Shown: piece by piece, positions 10,225 to 59,219 of the stretch | How the letters are laid out: every line of letters starts with the position of its first letter | How positions within the stretch are numbered: the stretch's first letter is position 1 | Assembly (NCBI GenBank): GCA_964016885.1 | Contig: OZ024742.1 | Span: forward strand, 176,080,001-176,144,000 | Direction of reading: 5' to 3' | Origin: Eledone cirrhosa | Taxonomy: Eukaryota | DNA: 64,000 nucleotides | Translations under genes and position numbers: made by a program | The notes under the pieces: model-generated | What the model saw: only the letters and a program-made list of their open reading frames with translations | What the model was told of the DNA's origin: nothing | Databases searched by the model: none

Positions 10225-10400
10225 AATGAAACGAAATTTCATTTCCCACTCTTAGTACGGCTGTTACTTAAATATAAGTATGTACGCGTACATTCATATA
10301 TGTATACAGACGTACAGTAGTATGTATATATATATACATACATGCACACATATATATATATATGTACGTATGGATTCACCGAACATTTATTATAATCCTC
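10225..10400. mobile_element. Diverged fragment of the ~500-bp HHR-bearing unit at 33861-35702
   Basis: aatgaaacgaaatttcatttcccactcttagtacgg..ttacttaaat..tatacagacgtacagtag matches 34394-34495. Confidence 0.75.
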
Positions 10401-10795
10401 GGTGTGTTTTGGGTAGTAGATATATATATATATCGGTAGTATATATATATAGGTAGTATATATATATATATATATATAGGTATTATATATATATAAACAC
10501 TATAAACACACATTACACATACTAGGTATATATATACAATTGTCACTCAGATGAATGATAACATTTCAAAGTGTATCAAATGATGATTCTGTTGAAATGA
10601 ATTTTTTTCAAGTACCGATGTTCATCTACAAATGTACACATGGTGAGATTAAGAAAATAATGCATGTACTTAATTTTTTCTTTTAATATATATCCTGTTT
10701 ATTTACATATTTGAAAACAAAATAACACCATGAAGAGTATTTAGCGAACATCTTATCTGTATTTATATTTTGTTATATATATATATTTATATATA

Positions 10796-14860: not shown

Positions 14861-14867
<7 letters not shown>

Positions 14868-15367
14868 AATAGGATTTAGCTTCAAGCATAGCTGTATACA
14901 GATATGTATAGAAATTTCGTATTTCTAAAGAAATACGGTATGTTTACAGGGTAAACATTTAGGAAGCCGTAGCTATGCAAAACACCGGGGCTAGCGCCCT
15001 CTAACACTCGAGAATATTTCTTTAGAAATACGAAATTTCTATACATATCTGTATACATTGATACTTGAAGCTAAATCCTATTTCTATTCTAAGTTGAGCC
15101 AACTTAGGCAGCTTCATATGCAAATGAGATTAATCACCTCATTTACACAGACGTGAAAACTATATATTATCCACTTGTTCTCAAGTCTAGCAGTCGCAAA
15201 TGTGGGAGATATCGTCCTGATGAAGATTAGTTAAGTCTGAAATGCATAGACAATTGTCCCCCTTGCTTCTGCTGGACACCACCAGAGGACATTAGCCCCG
15301 GTGTTTTGCATAGCTACGGCTTCCTAAATGTTTACCCTGTAAACATACCGTAAATGAAATTTCTATA
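14861..15367 (+). mobile_element. HHR-bearing non-coding element (family C) with 5' inversion, in (TA)n
   Basis: 14861-14995 is the reverse complement of 15292-15352 joined to 15018-15088; homologous to 17030-17465 and 41614-41690. Confidence 0.8.
15211..15254 (+). ncRNA. Minimal type-I hammerhead ribozyme
   Basis: atcgtc-CTGATGA-agat(tagttaa)gtct-GAAA-tgca-TA-gacaat; palindromic ATGCAT stem III; one stem I mismatch. Confidence 0.78.
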
Positions 15368-15462
15368 CACACACACACATATATATATATATTTTTTTTA
15401 AATATATATATATATATATATATATGTATTTGTACATATATATGTATATATATTTGTACATA

Positions 15463-17010: not shown

Positions 17011-17029
17011 TGACATATATATAAATATT

Positions 17030-17464
17030 GAATTTCGTATTCCTACAGAAATACGGTATGTTTATAAATAAACATTTAGAAAGCTATAGCTATGAATAAC
17101 ATGCTGGTAGCTAACACACCCAGGTGGTGCCTGGCAGGAGCCAACTTATACAGCTTCATATGCAAATGAGATTAATCACCTCATTTACACAGATGAATAT
17201 ATATATTTTCGGCTGTTTTCAAAGTCCGGCAGCTGCAAGAGCGGGAGAGATCGTCCTGATGAGAATTAGTTCAGTTCGAAAAGTATCGACGATTGTCCCC
17301 CTTGCTTCTGCTAGGTATGGCCTGGTGGCATTAGCTACCAGTATGTTATTCATAGCTATGGCTTTCTAAATGTTTATTTATAAAAATAACGTATTTCTTT
17401 AGAAATACGAAATTGAACTACATATTTGTATACAGTTATGTTGGAAGCTAAATTCTAATTCTAT

Positions 17465-26489: not shown

Positions 26490-28720
26490 CTAATAGTAAT
26501 AATAATAATAAATTTGAAGACTAAAATCCAAAGAGGGCTCGATAAGGATAAATATATATCAAATATATAGGAACCGTAGAGCAAATATTTAATAAAAGAA
26601 CAGATTAAAGTTTAAGCAAAGAATCGCTGCATTCACCCATAACGGGATCTGCTGAAACTAACAAAGTCAATCTGTGAACGCAGAAGTGAATATTTCAAAA
26701 AACGTTGCAACCGGAGGAAGACAGGAAGACGATACTTTGCTTCGTGGAAACGTTCCCTAGCAAAGAACGGGAAGAAACGAATATAATAAGTCACTATTTG
26801 GAGCGGTGAAAAACAATTACACGCAAAGACAGAACCACGTTTATGGTATAAAAGAAGTCGTAGACTAATATTTTATTAGGTGGTTCATACAGACGTTCTC
26901 TAGCAATGAACGGAAACAACGAAGATAATACGTCATATATGGAGCGGGGAGAACAATTGCACGCAAATACAAAACCACGTAAATGGTATAACTGAAGTCG
27001 TAGACTAAAATTCTAACTAGGAAACCGAATGATTCTCGACTTCAGAGTTAAGAATAAAGTAAATAAAATACAGAGGTAATAGAAATTAAATAAATACATA
27101 CACGCATCCATATACGTATATACACAAGCTTACGCGAAAACACTCGCCATAGGTATACAAATACACGCACGTACACAAAAAAAGAGAAAAAAAAACAAAA
27201 AACCCGCACGCACATACAGAACCCACGCAACGCCTGTATCCGCACGCATAAGAATGAATACACCAAACACACATAAAATATATATTTAAAAAAAGATATA
27301 TATATATGTGTTTGTGTGTGTGTGTGTGTATACATATAATTAAATAAACGTATATAAATAAATAAATACGTATATAACAAGCGCACAACATACCTACATG
27401 TAAATACTCATATGTTCGGAGACGTACGTCAACCAAAACACAAAGTACACATATACACACACACTACATACGTACGAACCCGCATACACACACAGACGCA
27501 AAGCTCCAGTGTACACATAAGCAAAGCATATGTACCAGAATATATAAGATATACGCCATAACCTATACAATAAAATATACGTACGAGAAAGTATACGTAC
27601 CTTCACAAAACATACAGGTAATATATACTTACCTATACAAATAATTAATGGTATAAACATAACATATACTTAGCTACCACATCAAGACGTAAAATATCCG
27701 CGTATAGTTCGTACTATCCGTTAGGGTATAATGTGGGGCTGTAATACAGGAAAATTTTGTGCAATTTATGTTTACAAGCCGAAATTGCTTCTGATTTTTT
27801 GTTTAAGATGTTGTCTTTGGCATAGAGTATTTCCAGGGCTTCAGCGGCGCAGAGGTCACAAGGTTTTTATTTCCGTTATACGATCTAGCCTTAGCTTGGA
27901 TCTCCCAGTGTAACTTATATTGGGTTTAGTTGTCTTTTAGACTCCAGATATAAGCTGAAAGTGACGTGATATTCCTTCTTAAAAGGTAACGAAAAGAATA
28001 GGTGGGCATGTAAAGACGCTGCTTGAATCTATTGGCGGTTAACCCTATGTAAGCCCTACGGGACGTGGGTGTTTCAACCTTACATTTGTAGACAATGTTA
28101 CTAGAGAGGCATTTCCCGGATAGGGGGCAGTCAACCCAATTTCTACAATTACAGTTAGTACTAACTACAGGGTTGCACGTGTTCCTACGGCTAGGTAGTT
28201 TAGCTAAATTTGAAGCTGTGATGTTATGTGGAAGGTTAGGAGTTGTAGAGTAAGACATTTTAATAGTATTTCTATTAAACATTTTACTATATTTATGTGT
28301 AGGGGGAAAATGTTTTGTAATAAGGGAGAGAAAGATCTTAGTTAATGGTGTGGCCACCTCCATATTATAAGGTGGGTTATACCATATAATGCATCGGGAT
28401 CTATTTCTTCTAGGTCTCTTCTCGTACTCTGTATAAGCTACCTTATCGACAAATCTACTCCGAGCAAGAGCTTCATTGTAATATGTGGAATGGTCGTTGA
28501 AAATATGCTCGTTAGTAGATAGACGGGAAAGCCTCAAAGGAACGTTTCTTACCTGGTTCTTGGTTATGCTGGCAGGATGGTTAGAATGCATACTTATATA
28601 ATTAAGCGTATCATTCGCTTACTATGCGGGTAATGCAAGCCATTCGATAAATTGAGGGTAACGTCGAGGTAATCAACGACCGAGAGGTTGGCCTCAACCA
28701 GTATGGAGAGGTTGAAGCTC
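26490..28720 (-). mobile_element. 5'-truncated Penelope-like element: RT C-terminus, Cys-rich linker, GIY-YIG endonuclease, long 3' UTR/pLTR
   Basis: ORF 27926-28591 SNHP, IIWYNPP, HFP..H..KMFN.NT.K.SYS, CNCR..CPL.GKCL, IVYKC..YIGLT..FKQR; shifted frame CDLCAAE..ILNKKSE..SACKH near 27760-27860. Joining the 26490-27700 tail to it is inference. Confidence 0.85.
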
Positions 28721-33561: not shown

Positions 33562-33633
33562 TGTGTGTGAGTGTGTGTGTGTGTGTGTGTATGTGTCTGT
33601 GTGTGTATATATATATATACATATATATATATA

Positions 33634-33860
<227 letters not shown>

Positions 33861-33979
33861 ATAAGTTGTAATATAATGAAACGAAATCTCATTTCGCACG
33901 CTTAGTACGGCACTTACTTAAATGTAAGTATGTATGTATACGTACATACATATATCTATACAGACGTACAGTAGCATGC

Positions 33980-34068
<89 letters not shown>

Positions 34069-34217
34069 CAGGTACACATATATATATGTACGTATCAGTT
34101 TAGCGAGCGTTTATTATATCGCCCGCTTTGTTCGTTTGTAAACAAGCGAACAGCCTGATTTATGCCATACGGTGTTAAGGCAACCACGTCACCCTTTTGT
34201 TCAACACTGACACAGGA

Positions 34218-34260
34218 ACGATGTACTAGTTTCAAGCTTGTTAACTATCATCAGCACCGT
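34218..34260 (-). ncRNA. Minimal type-I hammerhead ribozyme
   Basis: acggtg-CTGATGA-tagttaacaagctt-GAAA-ctag-TA-catcgt. Confidence 0.82.
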
Positions 34261-34495
34261 ATACCCTTCTGCCAGATAGTTGAACGTTTGAAAGTATATA
34301 CTTTCCTTATGAAAATTAACGGCTGAGCAGCCTAATTTGCATATCGAGTGAGTTAAGTCGGCCAGGCGTACCGAAAACGATAAGTTGTAATATAATGAAA
34401 CGAAATTTCATTTCTCACTCTTAGTACGGCACTTACTTAAATGTAAGTATGTATGTATACGTACATACATATATCTATACAGACGTACAGTAGCA

Positions 34496-34553
<58 letters not shown>

Positions 34554-34702
34554 CAGGTACACATATATATATGTACGTATCAGTTTAGCGAACGTTTACT
34601 ATAACGCCCGCTTTGTTCGTTTGTAAACAAGCGAACAGCCTGATTTATGCCATACGGTGTTAAGGCAACCACGTCACCTTTTTGTTCAACACTGACACAG
34701 GA

Positions 34703-34745
34703 ACGATGTACTAGTTTCAAGCTTGTTAGCTATCAGCAGCACCGT
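34703..34745 (-). ncRNA. Hammerhead copy with A6C core mutation (probably inactive)
   Basis: Same fold but core reads CTGCTGA (change at 34736). Confidence 0.7.
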
Positions 34746-34980
34746 ATACCCTTCTGTCAGATAGTTGAACGTTCGAAAGTATATACTTTCTTTATGAAAA
34801 TTAACGGCTGAGCTGCCTAATTTGCATATCGAGTGAGTTAAGTCGGCCAGGCGTACCGAAAACGATAAGTTGTAATATAATGAAACGTAATTTCATTTCT
34901 CACTCTTAGTACGGCACTTACTTAAATGTAAGTATGTATGTATACGTACATACATATATGTATACAGACGTACAGTAGCA

Positions 34981-35022
<42 letters not shown>

Positions 35023-35366
35023 CAGGTACACATATATATATGTACGTATCAGTTTACCGAACGTTTATTATAACGCCCACTTTGTTCGTTTGTAAACAAT
35101 CGAACAGCCTGATTTCTGCCATACGGTGTTAAGGCAACCACGTCACCTTTTATTTATTTTTTTTTTTTTTTACTTACATATTTACTTTTAATAAGTGCCG
35201 TACTAAGAGTGAGAAATGAAATTTCGTTTCATTATATTACAACTTATCGTTTTCGGTACGCCTGGCCGACTTAACTCACTCGATATGCAAATTAGGCTGC
35301 TCAGCCGTTAATTTTCATAAGGAAAATATATACTTTCGAACGTTCAACTATCTAGCAGAAGGGTAT

Positions 35367-35409
35367 ACGGTGCTGATGATAGCTAACAAGCTTGAAACTA
35401 GTACATCGT
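35367..35409 (+). ncRNA. Minimal type-I hammerhead ribozyme
   Basis: acggtg-CTGATGA-t-agct(aaca)agct-t-GAAA-ctag-TA-catcgt; 6-bp stem I, palindromic ACTAGT stem III, GUA site. Confidence 0.85.
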
Positions 35410-35568
35410 TCCTGTATCAGTGTTGAACAAAAAGGTGATGTGGTTGCCTTAACACCCTATGGCATAAATCAGTCTGTTCGCTTGTTTACAAACGAACAAA
35501 GCGGGCGTTATAATAAAGGTTCGCTAAACTGATACGTACATATATATATGTGTACCTGTATGTATATA

Positions 35569-35648
<80 letters not shown>

Positions 35649-35719
35649 TGCTACTGTACGTCTGTATACATATATGTATGTACGTATACATACATACTTA
35701 CACATATATATATAAATAA

Positions 35720-58597: not shown

Positions 58598-59219
58598 TTA
58601 GAAAATATATAGCTTTCACCGTATTTTTGACTAAAGGAATTTTAGCTTGATAACGGGGTTTAGAACCCCCAGATGAATGGAAAAAGATGAGTATTGACGT
58701 ACATGGGAGTCGAACCCACATCTGTGGTTATCGCGACCACTGTGCTACCATTACACCCATCACCCATCTCTTTCCATTCAAATTAGAAACTACATTCTTA
58801 GCGGGTTCGACTCCCATGTACGTCAATACTCATCTTTTTCCATTTATCTGAGGGTTCTAAACCCCGTTATCAAGCTAAAATTCCTTTAGTCAAAAATACG
58901 GTGAAAGCTATATATTTTCTAATTTCAAACTCGCTCACTGTTTCAAAACATACTTACTTGCCATTTAAACTCGCTAAGAATGTAGTTTCTAATTTGAATG
59001 GAAAGAGATGAGTGATGTGTTGGTGTAATGGTAGCACAGTGGTCGCGATAACCACAGATGTGGGTTCGACTCCCATGTACGTCAATACTCATCTTTTTCC
59101 ATTTATCTGAGGGTTCTAAACCCCGTTATCAAGCTAAAATTCCTTTAGTCAAAAATACGATGAAAGCTATATATTTTCTAATTTTAAACTCGCTCACTGT
59201 TTCAAAACATACTTACTTG
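58596..59219. repeat. 259-bp unit containing a tRNA-like gene: ~1.6 tandem copies plus an inverted copy, in (TA)n
   Basis: GGGTTCGACTCCC at 58803 and 59062; 58596-58803 is the reverse complement of about 58972-59182. Confidence 0.85.
59014..59084 (+). tRNA. tRNA-like cloverleaf with atypical anticodon loop (pseudo-tRNA)
   Basis: Acceptor gatgtgt/gtacgtc (G-U rich), D gtgt/gcac, anticodon stem gtggt/accac with loop cgcgata, T gtggg-TTCGACT-cccat; A and B boxes; TTTTT at 59094-59098. Confidence 0.55.

What the first reader, a model, noticed from the sequence alone, without database searches (positions are those of the whole stretch)
33861..35702. Multimeric ~500-nt hammerhead-bearing non-coding retroelement (retrozyme-like) with tandem and inverted copies
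Seen: a non-coding unit repeated head-to-tail ~2.6 times then inverted ~1.1 times, inside (TA)n. Each full unit holds one type-I HHR (CUGAUGA/GAAA core, palindromic ACUAGU stem III, GUA site), and the HHR-sense 3' end (..caacttat) merges into the TA tract. Established: minimal type-I HHRs with palindromic stem III mark Penelope pLTRs and metazoan non-LTR retrozymes, cleave best as dimers, and can yield circular RNAs. Inference: this is a non-autonomous retrozyme copied from a circular or multimeric RNA by a Penelope RT. A diverged relative at 10225-10400 shows it is a dispersed family.
Basis: partly seen in the sequence, partly recalled or inferred. Interest (0 to 1): 0.85.

Follow-up and report, generated by a model that had tools for sequence, protein, structure and literature searches.

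The report
Self-cutting RNA repeat riding Penelope enzymes
This is one insertion of a 485-base non-coding repeat, present over ten thousand times in this animal genome, that carries a hammerhead motif predicted to cut its own RNA; its back-to-back arms, a motif like the host's own U6-gene promoter and direct fusions to Penelope transposon genes suggest that it likely transcribes itself and is likely pasted in by those transposons' enzymes, probably from an RNA circle, so it is a new member of a known kind (retrozymes) whose copying route can now be tested.

Summary
Observation largely confirmed: 2.6 tandem units (minus sense) joined head-to-head to 1.1 inverted units in (TA)n. Two units keep the type I hammerhead core; the middle unit has CUGCUGA, not CUGAUGA. 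The 36-nt core has 10,391 exact genomic matches. In 77 loci, 45 show two arms; all 30 pairs classable at both ends use one of each of two fixed 3' sites, the Penelope 'tail' signature. None of the 77 is the UTR of a coding element, but 3 are fused directly to ORFs of young Hydra-type Penelope elements. Units of one insertion share haplotypes across the inversion and read through the cleavage site seamlessly, which fits a circular or uncut multimeric template. Each unit carries the motif-plus-TATA found upstream of host U6, U6atac and RNase MRP genes (absent from U1/U2), with 4-6 nt shorter spacing. Cleavage, circles and expression are untested; no RNA run was listed. Verdict: new family of a known class (animal non-LTR retrozymes). 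The scan already noted this class many times in this and other genomes.

The parts
33606..33860 (.). (TA)n target tract, left flank
   Evidence: sequence; TRF array starting at 33606
33861..34379 (-). Unit 1 (519 nt; long internal TA tract); its 3' end at 33861 is the 'long' fixed end (unit position 485)
34380..34864 (-). Unit 2 (485 nt; reference unit used for numbering q1-q485)
34865..35151 (-). 5'-truncated unit 3 (q183-q485), no ribozyme
35152..35170 (.). 19-nt T-rich filler at the head-to-head junction, next to an A-run of the unit; likely polymerase slippage (inference)
   Evidence: sequence; gap of 19 nt between arms
35171..35702 (+). Inverted arm, q408 through one full unit to the 'short' fixed end (q423-427)
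35703..35714 (.). Short (TA) right flank
   Evidence: sequence
35367..35409 (+). Minimal type I hammerhead, canonical core, U-U at base of stem II, palindromic stem III, predicted cleavage after 35403
   Evidence: covariation
34218..34260 (-). Hammerhead of unit 1, canonical core, predicted cleavage after 34224
34703..34745 (-). Hammerhead of unit 2 with core change A6C, predicted inactive
35285..35332 (+). U6/MRP-like promoter motif (35285-35295) and TATA-like box (35327-35332); predicted start near 35357
34295..34342 (-). Same promoter-like pair in unit 1
34780..34827 (-). Same promoter-like pair in unit 2
10225..10409 (-). Separate, truncated copy of an older subfamily (3' part only, no ribozyme)
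   Evidence: 86% to unit 2; 90% to loci L221/L222

Best explanation
It is one insertion of a high-copy, non-coding, hammerhead-bearing repeat (an animal non-LTR retrozyme) that is likely transcribed from its own U6-like promoter, predicted to cut itself into unit-length RNA that likely circularises, and likely copied into (TA)n by the reverse transcriptase/endonuclease of a Hydra-type Penelope element. Shown by the sequence: unit structure, copy number, (TA)n targeting, two fixed 3' sites 58 nt apart used one per arm, random 5' junctions, single-haplotype multimers, seamless passage through the cleavage site, promoter-motif match, three ORF fusions. Inferred: the enzyme, predicted elsewhere to be a dimer, nicks both target strands and primes each at one of the two internal sites on one RNA, runs 0.1 to more than 6 units, and the two cDNAs are joined head-to-head. 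Because the promoter motif lies upstream of its predicted start, only a tandem or circular copy can regenerate it, which would explain why the element exists as permuted multimers. My odds: non-autonomous and Penelope-mobilised 0.92; Hydra-type helper 0.8 (family D first); promoter motif functional 0.65; self-cleavage 0.8; circle rather than uncut multimer as main template 0.55-0.6.
For: Copy number 10,391 exact cores, control 0; 23,695 with sister families. Longest ATG-started frame in the concatemer 31 aa sense, 57 aa antisense. 45 of 77 loci have a head-to-head junction; 30 of the 45 are classable at both ends and all 30 pair the two different ends, none the same. Autonomous family A does likewise in 4 of 4 loci where both ends were found, of 7 examined. 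115 of 127 canonical 3' ends are followed by TATA/ATAT within 10 nt. Two internal start sites and extension of both target strands are the in vitro behaviour of a Penelope enzyme (PMC11167929). 77 of 94 arms cross the cleavage site and 53 exceed one unit; 1 of 94 5' ends falls at q150-163 (3.3 expected); no gaps at q150-165 in 108 copies. Diagnostic haplotype identical in 62 of 75 within-locus pairs against 395 of 5703 between loci; 3 locus-private changes are shared across the inversion. 3 of 77 loci abut a Hydra-type ORF within 3 nt with no TA at the joint. Hammerhead helices covary across subfamilies and a sister family: 93.5% of cells paired, 10 of 22 pairs with changes on both sides, slid controls 33-47%. 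Strand-swapped dimer -19.0 against -13.0 kcal/mol for two monomers. Promoter motif at -76 to -78 with TATA at -30 in three U6 loci, one U6atac and RNase MRP, absent from 6 U1 and 2 U2 loci; all 5 hits in the window lie in hammerhead elements.
Against: No RNA evidence at all. In vitro, a Penelope hammerhead was dispensable and unprocessed RNA was the main substrate (PMC11167929). Only 1 of 9 predicted frog retrozyme dimers cleaved in vitro. The motif-to-TATA spacing is 42-43 against 46-48 in host genes, no upstream CCCTT element like that of the U6 genes was seen in the unit, and T4 runs (T5 in the sister family) would tend to stop Pol III before the next ribozyme. 5 of 26 multi-copy loci are not uniform at diagnostic sites and 2 private changes are shared by only some units. 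Two long sister-family arrays show recurring shared changes, so arrays also grow after insertion. The fusions could be deletions between neighbours in one TA tract, and the family A fusion pairs two short ends. The unit has no detectable homology to the UTRs of the three Hydra families tested. The covariation rests mostly on one split (family A against B), not on many independent events.
Confidence: 0.6

Rival explanations
1. Same element and same helper, but the template is an uncut read-through multimer; the ribozyme is incidental to copying and circles are absent or by-products.
For: HHR mutants inserted normally and unprocessed RNA dominated in vitro (PMC11167929). Uncut RNA also gives seamless passage through the cleavage site. 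Minimal hammerheads often cut poorly.
Against: 20 diagnostic haplotypes among 65 loci, nearly always uniform within an insertion, imply repeated single-unit bottlenecks. No pile-up of 5' ends near the predicted start (4 of 94 at q104-117, 3.3 expected). The hammerhead is kept with compensatory changes.
Confidence: 0.28
2. Insertions begin as 1-1.5 units and multimers arise later by unequal exchange, as satellite-like local amplification.
For: Recurring shared changes among the 30 and 14 units compared in two long sister-family arrays; partial sharing in L030 and L108; the model proposed in the 2026 preprint.
Against: In multi-copy loci 84 of 91 locus-private changes are in one unit only, including all those of this window, so units diverged independently from about the time of insertion; private changes cross the inversion in 3 loci. 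It explains neither the inverted arm nor the two-site rule.
Confidence: 0.07
3. The copies are only 5'-truncated terminal repeats (pLTRs) of an autonomous Penelope element not yet found.
For: Tandem and inverted truncated copies are typical of Penelope elements (PMC8557442). Only three of several Hydra-like families were tested for homology, and 77 loci are a small sample.
Against: 0 of 77 loci have the unit behind a stop codon; 53 of 94 arms run past a whole unit into another unit and never into a UTR or ORF; no homology to the UTRs of families A, C or D in 78 loci; the unit has a promoter motif not seen as part of those elements.
Confidence: 0.05

Closest known systems
Metazoan non-LTR retrozymes (Cervera and de la Pena 2020, PMC7229834, parts 2-4 of 6 read; Li, Clavereau and Pollet 2026, 10.64898/2026.07.22.740005, parts 1-3 of 5 read)
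   Same: Non-coding tandem units each with a type I hammerhead, low GC, thousands of copies, no LTR features, coexisting Penelope elements. Weak stem III and U-U at the base of stem II resemble the axolotl HHR_Amex motifs.
   Different: 485 nt is above the 150-450 bp of the 2020 paper but inside the 51-972 bp of the preprint. The parts read do not describe two-armed inverted insertions, two fixed 3' sites, fusions to helper ORFs or a U6-like promoter. Unlike many frog families, no homology to a pLTR was found. Circles are shown there, not here.
Hydra clade of Penelope-like elements (Craig et al. 2021, PMC8557442, section 11 and passages read)
   Same: (TA)n targeting, tandem plus inverted 5'-truncated copies, a tail at one end only, hammerheads. 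[quoted passage not shown]
   Different: The unit encodes nothing. The tail is 58 nt here (about 95 in family D, 170 in family A) against 30-40 bp in the paper.
Anolis Poseidon element PAc in vitro (Frangieh et al. 2024, PMC11167929, parts 1-2 of 4 read)
   Same: Two internal start sites that define the tail; both target strands cut and extended; AT-rich targets; predicted dimer.
   Different: There start sites did not differ between strands and cleavage was dispensable; here the two arms of one insertion never share a site, and the RNA is non-coding.
Newt satellite 2 and schistosome satellite hammerhead repeats (one sentence and reference titles in PMC2220036; the original newt paper was not held)
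   Same: Hammerhead repeats with their own promoter: snRNA-type Pol II in newt, Pol III in schistosome.
   Different: Here the motif matches the host's U6/U6atac/MRP genes and not its U1/U2 genes; polymerase untested.

Membership tests
Metazoan non-LTR retrozyme | Tandem units of a few hundred bases, each with a type I hammerhead | tested here: met
   2 of 3 cores canonical in this insertion
Metazoan non-LTR retrozyme | Two consecutive units with complete hammerheads (the preprint's 'active' criterion) | tested here: inconclusive
   Not met at this locus (unit 2 has A6C); met at many family loci such as L004, L031, L077, L091
Metazoan non-LTR retrozyme | No protein-coding capacity, not attached to a coding element | tested here: met
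   0 of 77 loci as UTR of an ORF
Metazoan non-LTR retrozyme | Dispersed high copy number | tested here: met
Metazoan non-LTR retrozyme | Self-cleavage of the RNA | not testable with these tools
   core and covariation only
Metazoan non-LTR retrozyme | Accumulates as unit-length circular RNA | not testable with these tools
   no RNA holder listed
Penelope-type insertion | Two internal 3' sites (tail at one end), 5' truncation, inverted 5' arm | tested here: met
Penelope pLTR of an autonomous element | Follows an RT/GIY-YIG ORF as its terminal repeat | tested here: not met
   sample of 77 unit loci and 78 ORF loci from three families
Hydra clade (candidate helpers A, C, D) | DKT motif, CxCx5C linker, C-terminal endonuclease, (TA)n ends | tested here: met
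   DKT in all three; CxCx5C in C and D and in the L031 copy of A (not in the L063 copy)
Hydra clade (candidate helpers A, C, D) | RWK motif | tested here: inconclusive
   present in A; RWR in C and RWT in D
Hydra clade (candidate helpers A, C, D) | Phylogenetic placement with reference Hydra proteins | not tested
   no tree built; Pfam gave no RT or GIY-YIG family for 4 fragments
Type 3 Pol III promoter (U6-like) | Host proximal motif plus TATA at conserved spacing | tested here: inconclusive
   motif and TATA-like box present; spacing 42-43 against 46-48
Plant LTR retrozyme | Type III hammerhead within LTRs | tested here: not met
   type I topology, permuted tandem units

The most novel reading that the evidence does not exclude
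A self-sufficient RNA parasite of animals: each unit carries inside its own circle a captured U6/MRP-type promoter and a dimer-activated ribozyme, and a dimeric Hydra-type reverse transcriptase rolls round one circle from two fixed start sites, one for each strand of the cut, occasionally switching between the circle and its own mRNA, so that enzyme, template and start sites for rolling-circle target-primed reverse transcription are all identified from the genome.
Probability: 0.35. Interest if true: 0.75.

Novelty: new member of a known kind. Interest (0 to 1): 0.5.

Why it matters
The idea that animal retrozyme circles are copied by Penelope enzymes has been a proposal resting on co-occurrence and terminal-repeat similarity. 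This family offers a young template, two mapped start sites, intact 713-821-residue candidate helper ORFs and direct fusions, enough to set up the in vitro assay already published for a lizard Penelope protein and to ask whether a circle is the substrate. The strict one-site-per-arm rule is a concrete prediction about how a Penelope dimer engages both strands. A host U6-type promoter in unrelated retrozyme families would explain how such repeats are expressed. The class itself is known and recurs widely in this scan, which caps the surprise.

Tried and rejected
Rfam: no hammerhead at E<=1 over the window, mostly microRNA-model hits on microsatellites; sub-threshold HH9 on a short stretch. Expression: no RNA holder listed among 6 runs; laying 4 runs of unknown kind gave only contigs, which cannot show strand, ends or circles; no evidence either way. 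Parent element: no homology between the unit and UTRs of Hydra-type families A (38 loci), C (20) and D (20); the hits were sister-family neighbours (L052, L064) and the L103 fusion; other Hydra-like families seen in flanks (L016, L069, L085, L108, L109, L124) were not tested. In-frame TGA codons in the L031 ORF are not a recoding signal, since sister copies are open for 808 codons. Long arrays as proof of one long rolling pass: rejected, they show later expansion. Lower mutation load inside the hammerhead is not used, because 50 of the 77 loci were chosen by an exact match to it; absence of diagnostic changes there has P about 0.06. RNA-editing marks, a lead from earlier notes: A>G 3 against T>C 0 among 11 all-unit changes, P 0.25, inconclusive. 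Target-site duplications cannot be read inside (TA)n. Pfam did not recognise the helper fragments. Paper searches; none listed a cephalopod retrozyme paper or a retrozyme promoter of U6 type, but most subscription papers are not held, the 2020 supplement was unreadable, the preprint's supplements are closed, and the first places of the Craig supplement showed only Naiad rows for cephalopods (two of four Octopus places not seen).

Full report
Observation. The window shows a 485-nt unit repeated head-to-tail on the minus sense strand (33861-34379, 34380-34864, partial 34865-35151), a 19-nt T-rich filler, and an inverted arm on the plus strand (35171-35702). I number the unit q1-q485 on the hammerhead-sense strand of the 34380-34864 copy. 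The ribozyme is a minimal type I hammerhead: stem I ACGGUG/CAUCGU, core CUGAUGA, a 4-pair stem II over a U-U pair, GAAA, a palindromic two-pair stem III, predicted cleavage after q156 (35403 in the inverted arm). Rfam does not recognise the motif at its cut-off. An alignment of 14 distinct versions from this family, older subfamilies and a sister family gives 93.5% paired cells, 10 of 22 pairs with changes on both sides and 33-47% in slid controls; most changes come from the one split between the two families. A strand-swapped dimer is computed 6 kcal/mol more stable than two monomers, in line with dimer-dependent cleavage in axolotl (PMC7229834).

Family. The genome is 3.0 Gb; earlier scan notes call it cephalopod, which I did not test. 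The 36-nt core matches exactly 10,391 times (reversed control 0), and a looser pattern 23,695 times, including a 466-469-nt sister family B. I mapped 77 distinct loci: 27 from the best BLAST hits (this window included) and 50 from the first exact-core matches along contig 1; overlapping duplicates were dropped. Both sets are biased, towards high identity and towards an intact core.

Insertion anatomy. 45 of 77 loci contain a head-to-head junction. In 30 of these both outer ends could be classed, and all 30 pair the end near q427 with the end near q485; none has the same end twice. The other 15 have one end in the internal TA tract, at an alignment break, at a fusion or at the edge of the fetched DNA. 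115 of 127 canonical ends run into TA. The 5' junctions are scattered. This is the Penelope signature: inverted 5'-truncated copy and a tail at one end (PMC8557442), which in vitro equals the distance between two internal start sites, with both target strands extended (PMC11167929). Coding elements of this genome behave alike: family A pairs long with short in 4 of 4 loci where both ends were found, of 7 examined, and family D has two ends about 95 nt apart.

Helper. Three young coding families with open frames of 808, about 713 and 821 codons end on (TA)n. They show DKT, a CxCx5C linker (C, D, one copy of A) and a C-terminal endonuclease, the Hydra features of Craig et al. section 11; RWK is exact only in A and no tree was built. 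Their UTRs have no homology to the unit, and no locus has the unit behind a stop codon. 13 of 77 loci have a helper-like ORF hit within the fetched DNA; 3 abut an arm within 3 nt with no TA between, the other 10 lie 48-1354 nt away. L031 joins 2.8 units head-to-head to a truncated family A ORF. L103 runs from a unit at q389 into a 5'-truncated family D element that is 98% identical to full-length copies. L100 runs from a family D ORF fragment into a unit at q405. The two D fusions keep the long-plus-short rule; the A fusion does not. Template switching is the simpler reading, but deletion between neighbours in one TA tract gives the same picture; I put switching at about two in three.

Template. 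A cut linear monomer (q157 to q156) primed at q485 or q427 would stop at q157. Instead 77 of 94 arms cross the site, 53 exceed one unit, 17 exceed two, the longest is 6.4, and only 1 of 94 5' ends lies at q150-163 against 3.3 expected; 108 copies show no gap there. Units of one insertion share their haplotype at 16 diagnostic sites in 62 of 75 pairs, against 395 of 5703 between loci; 21 of 26 multi-copy loci are uniform; three private changes are shared across the inversion, while 84 of 91 private changes sit in a single unit. So both arms derive from one kind of monomer and most multimers date from insertion. A circle explains this most simply. Uncut read-through RNA from uniform source arrays is not excluded and has in vitro support. 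Two long family B arrays show recurring shared changes, so very long arrays also grow after insertion. A test for editing marks was inconclusive.

Promoter. The block best conserved between this family and family B outside the ribozyme (q27-85, 76-78%) holds ATGCAAATTAG and a TATA-like box 42 nt on. The same 11-nt motif lies at -76 to -78 with TATA at -30 in 3 of 5 U6 loci examined (one standing for a tandem cluster), in 1 of 6 U6atac loci (one mismatch, read by eye from the output) and in the single RNase MRP gene; the loci lacking it look like dispersed pseudogenes (inference). It is absent from 6 U1 and 2 U2 loci. All 5 matches in the 64-kb window fall in hammerhead elements: 3 here and 2 in an otherwise unrelated family at 15118 and 17160; helper loci give 5 matches in 354,860 bases. 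Thirty bases past the TATA is q110, ten bases before stem I. Against: spacing is 4-6 nt shorter than in host genes, such spacing is reported as closely conserved in insect U6 promoters (PMC1761439, passages), and T4-T5 runs would hinder Pol III read-through. The polymerase is therefore open. A precedent exists in newt and schistosome hammerhead satellites (one sentence in PMC2220036).

Comparison and verdict. It works like, and by the testable features belongs to, the animal non-LTR retrozymes, proposed in 2020 to be copied from circles by Penelope enzymes and argued in a 2026 preprint to derive from their terminal repeats. Cleavage and circles, which define the class biochemically, were not testable; no RNA run was listed. 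In seven searches of the held library I found no report of this family, of the one-site-per-arm rule or of a U6-type promoter in retrozymes, with the limits noted under Tried and rejected. The scan's own notes already hold many reports of the class and of the two-arm pattern in this and other genomes (326 notes fit the genome look-up); a search by this sequence found none and one on promoter words found none, though one first-reader title mentions promoter-plus-hammerhead units. New member of a known kind; interest 0.5.

Noticed in passing
window 14862-15370 and 17024-17464: Two copies of an unrelated non-coding family, each with a type I hammerhead (cores at 15217 and 17256) and the same U6-like motif plus TATA upstream (15118, 17160), in (TA)n.
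   Followed up: partly
window 27878-28710 (-): Truncated, broken Hydra-type Penelope ORF fragment of family C; sister copies have 713-codon open frames.
   Followed up: partly
window 29613 (+) and 36515 (+): Further CUGAUGA...GAAA motifs; the first may be another hammerhead family, the second has no clear stem I.
   Followed up: no
G000:C1:5738327-5752443 (L216-L217) and C1:14044536-14051102 (L218): Sister family B (466-469 nt, no internal TA tract) forms arrays of about 31 and 15 units, each still with an inverted arm and TA flanks; recurring shared changes point to expansion after insertion.
   Followed up: yes
L010:2380-3206; also L015, L026, L070: The unit's internal TA tract is itself a target: family B and other TA-seeking elements appear inserted in it, splitting the unit.
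   Followed up: partly
L063 3' UTR (family A): The family A terminal repeat has an atypical hammerhead-like motif, core CCGAAGA with a stem II of about 70 nt (read by eye).
   Followed up: no
L071, L073, L085, L088, L100: One subfamily has a run of 6 or more T just before the long 3' end, which would be a strong Pol III stop, yet forms multimers.
   Followed up: no
L186-L188, L236, L242 against L201, L203, L243-L250: In this genome U6/U6atac/MRP genes and U1/U2 genes have different proximal promoter motifs, while U6, U1 and U2 share a CCCTT-containing element 250-285 nt upstream.
   Followed up: partly
window 59014-59084 (+) and 58695-58761 (-): tRNA-like matches over the Rfam cut-off.
   Followed up: no
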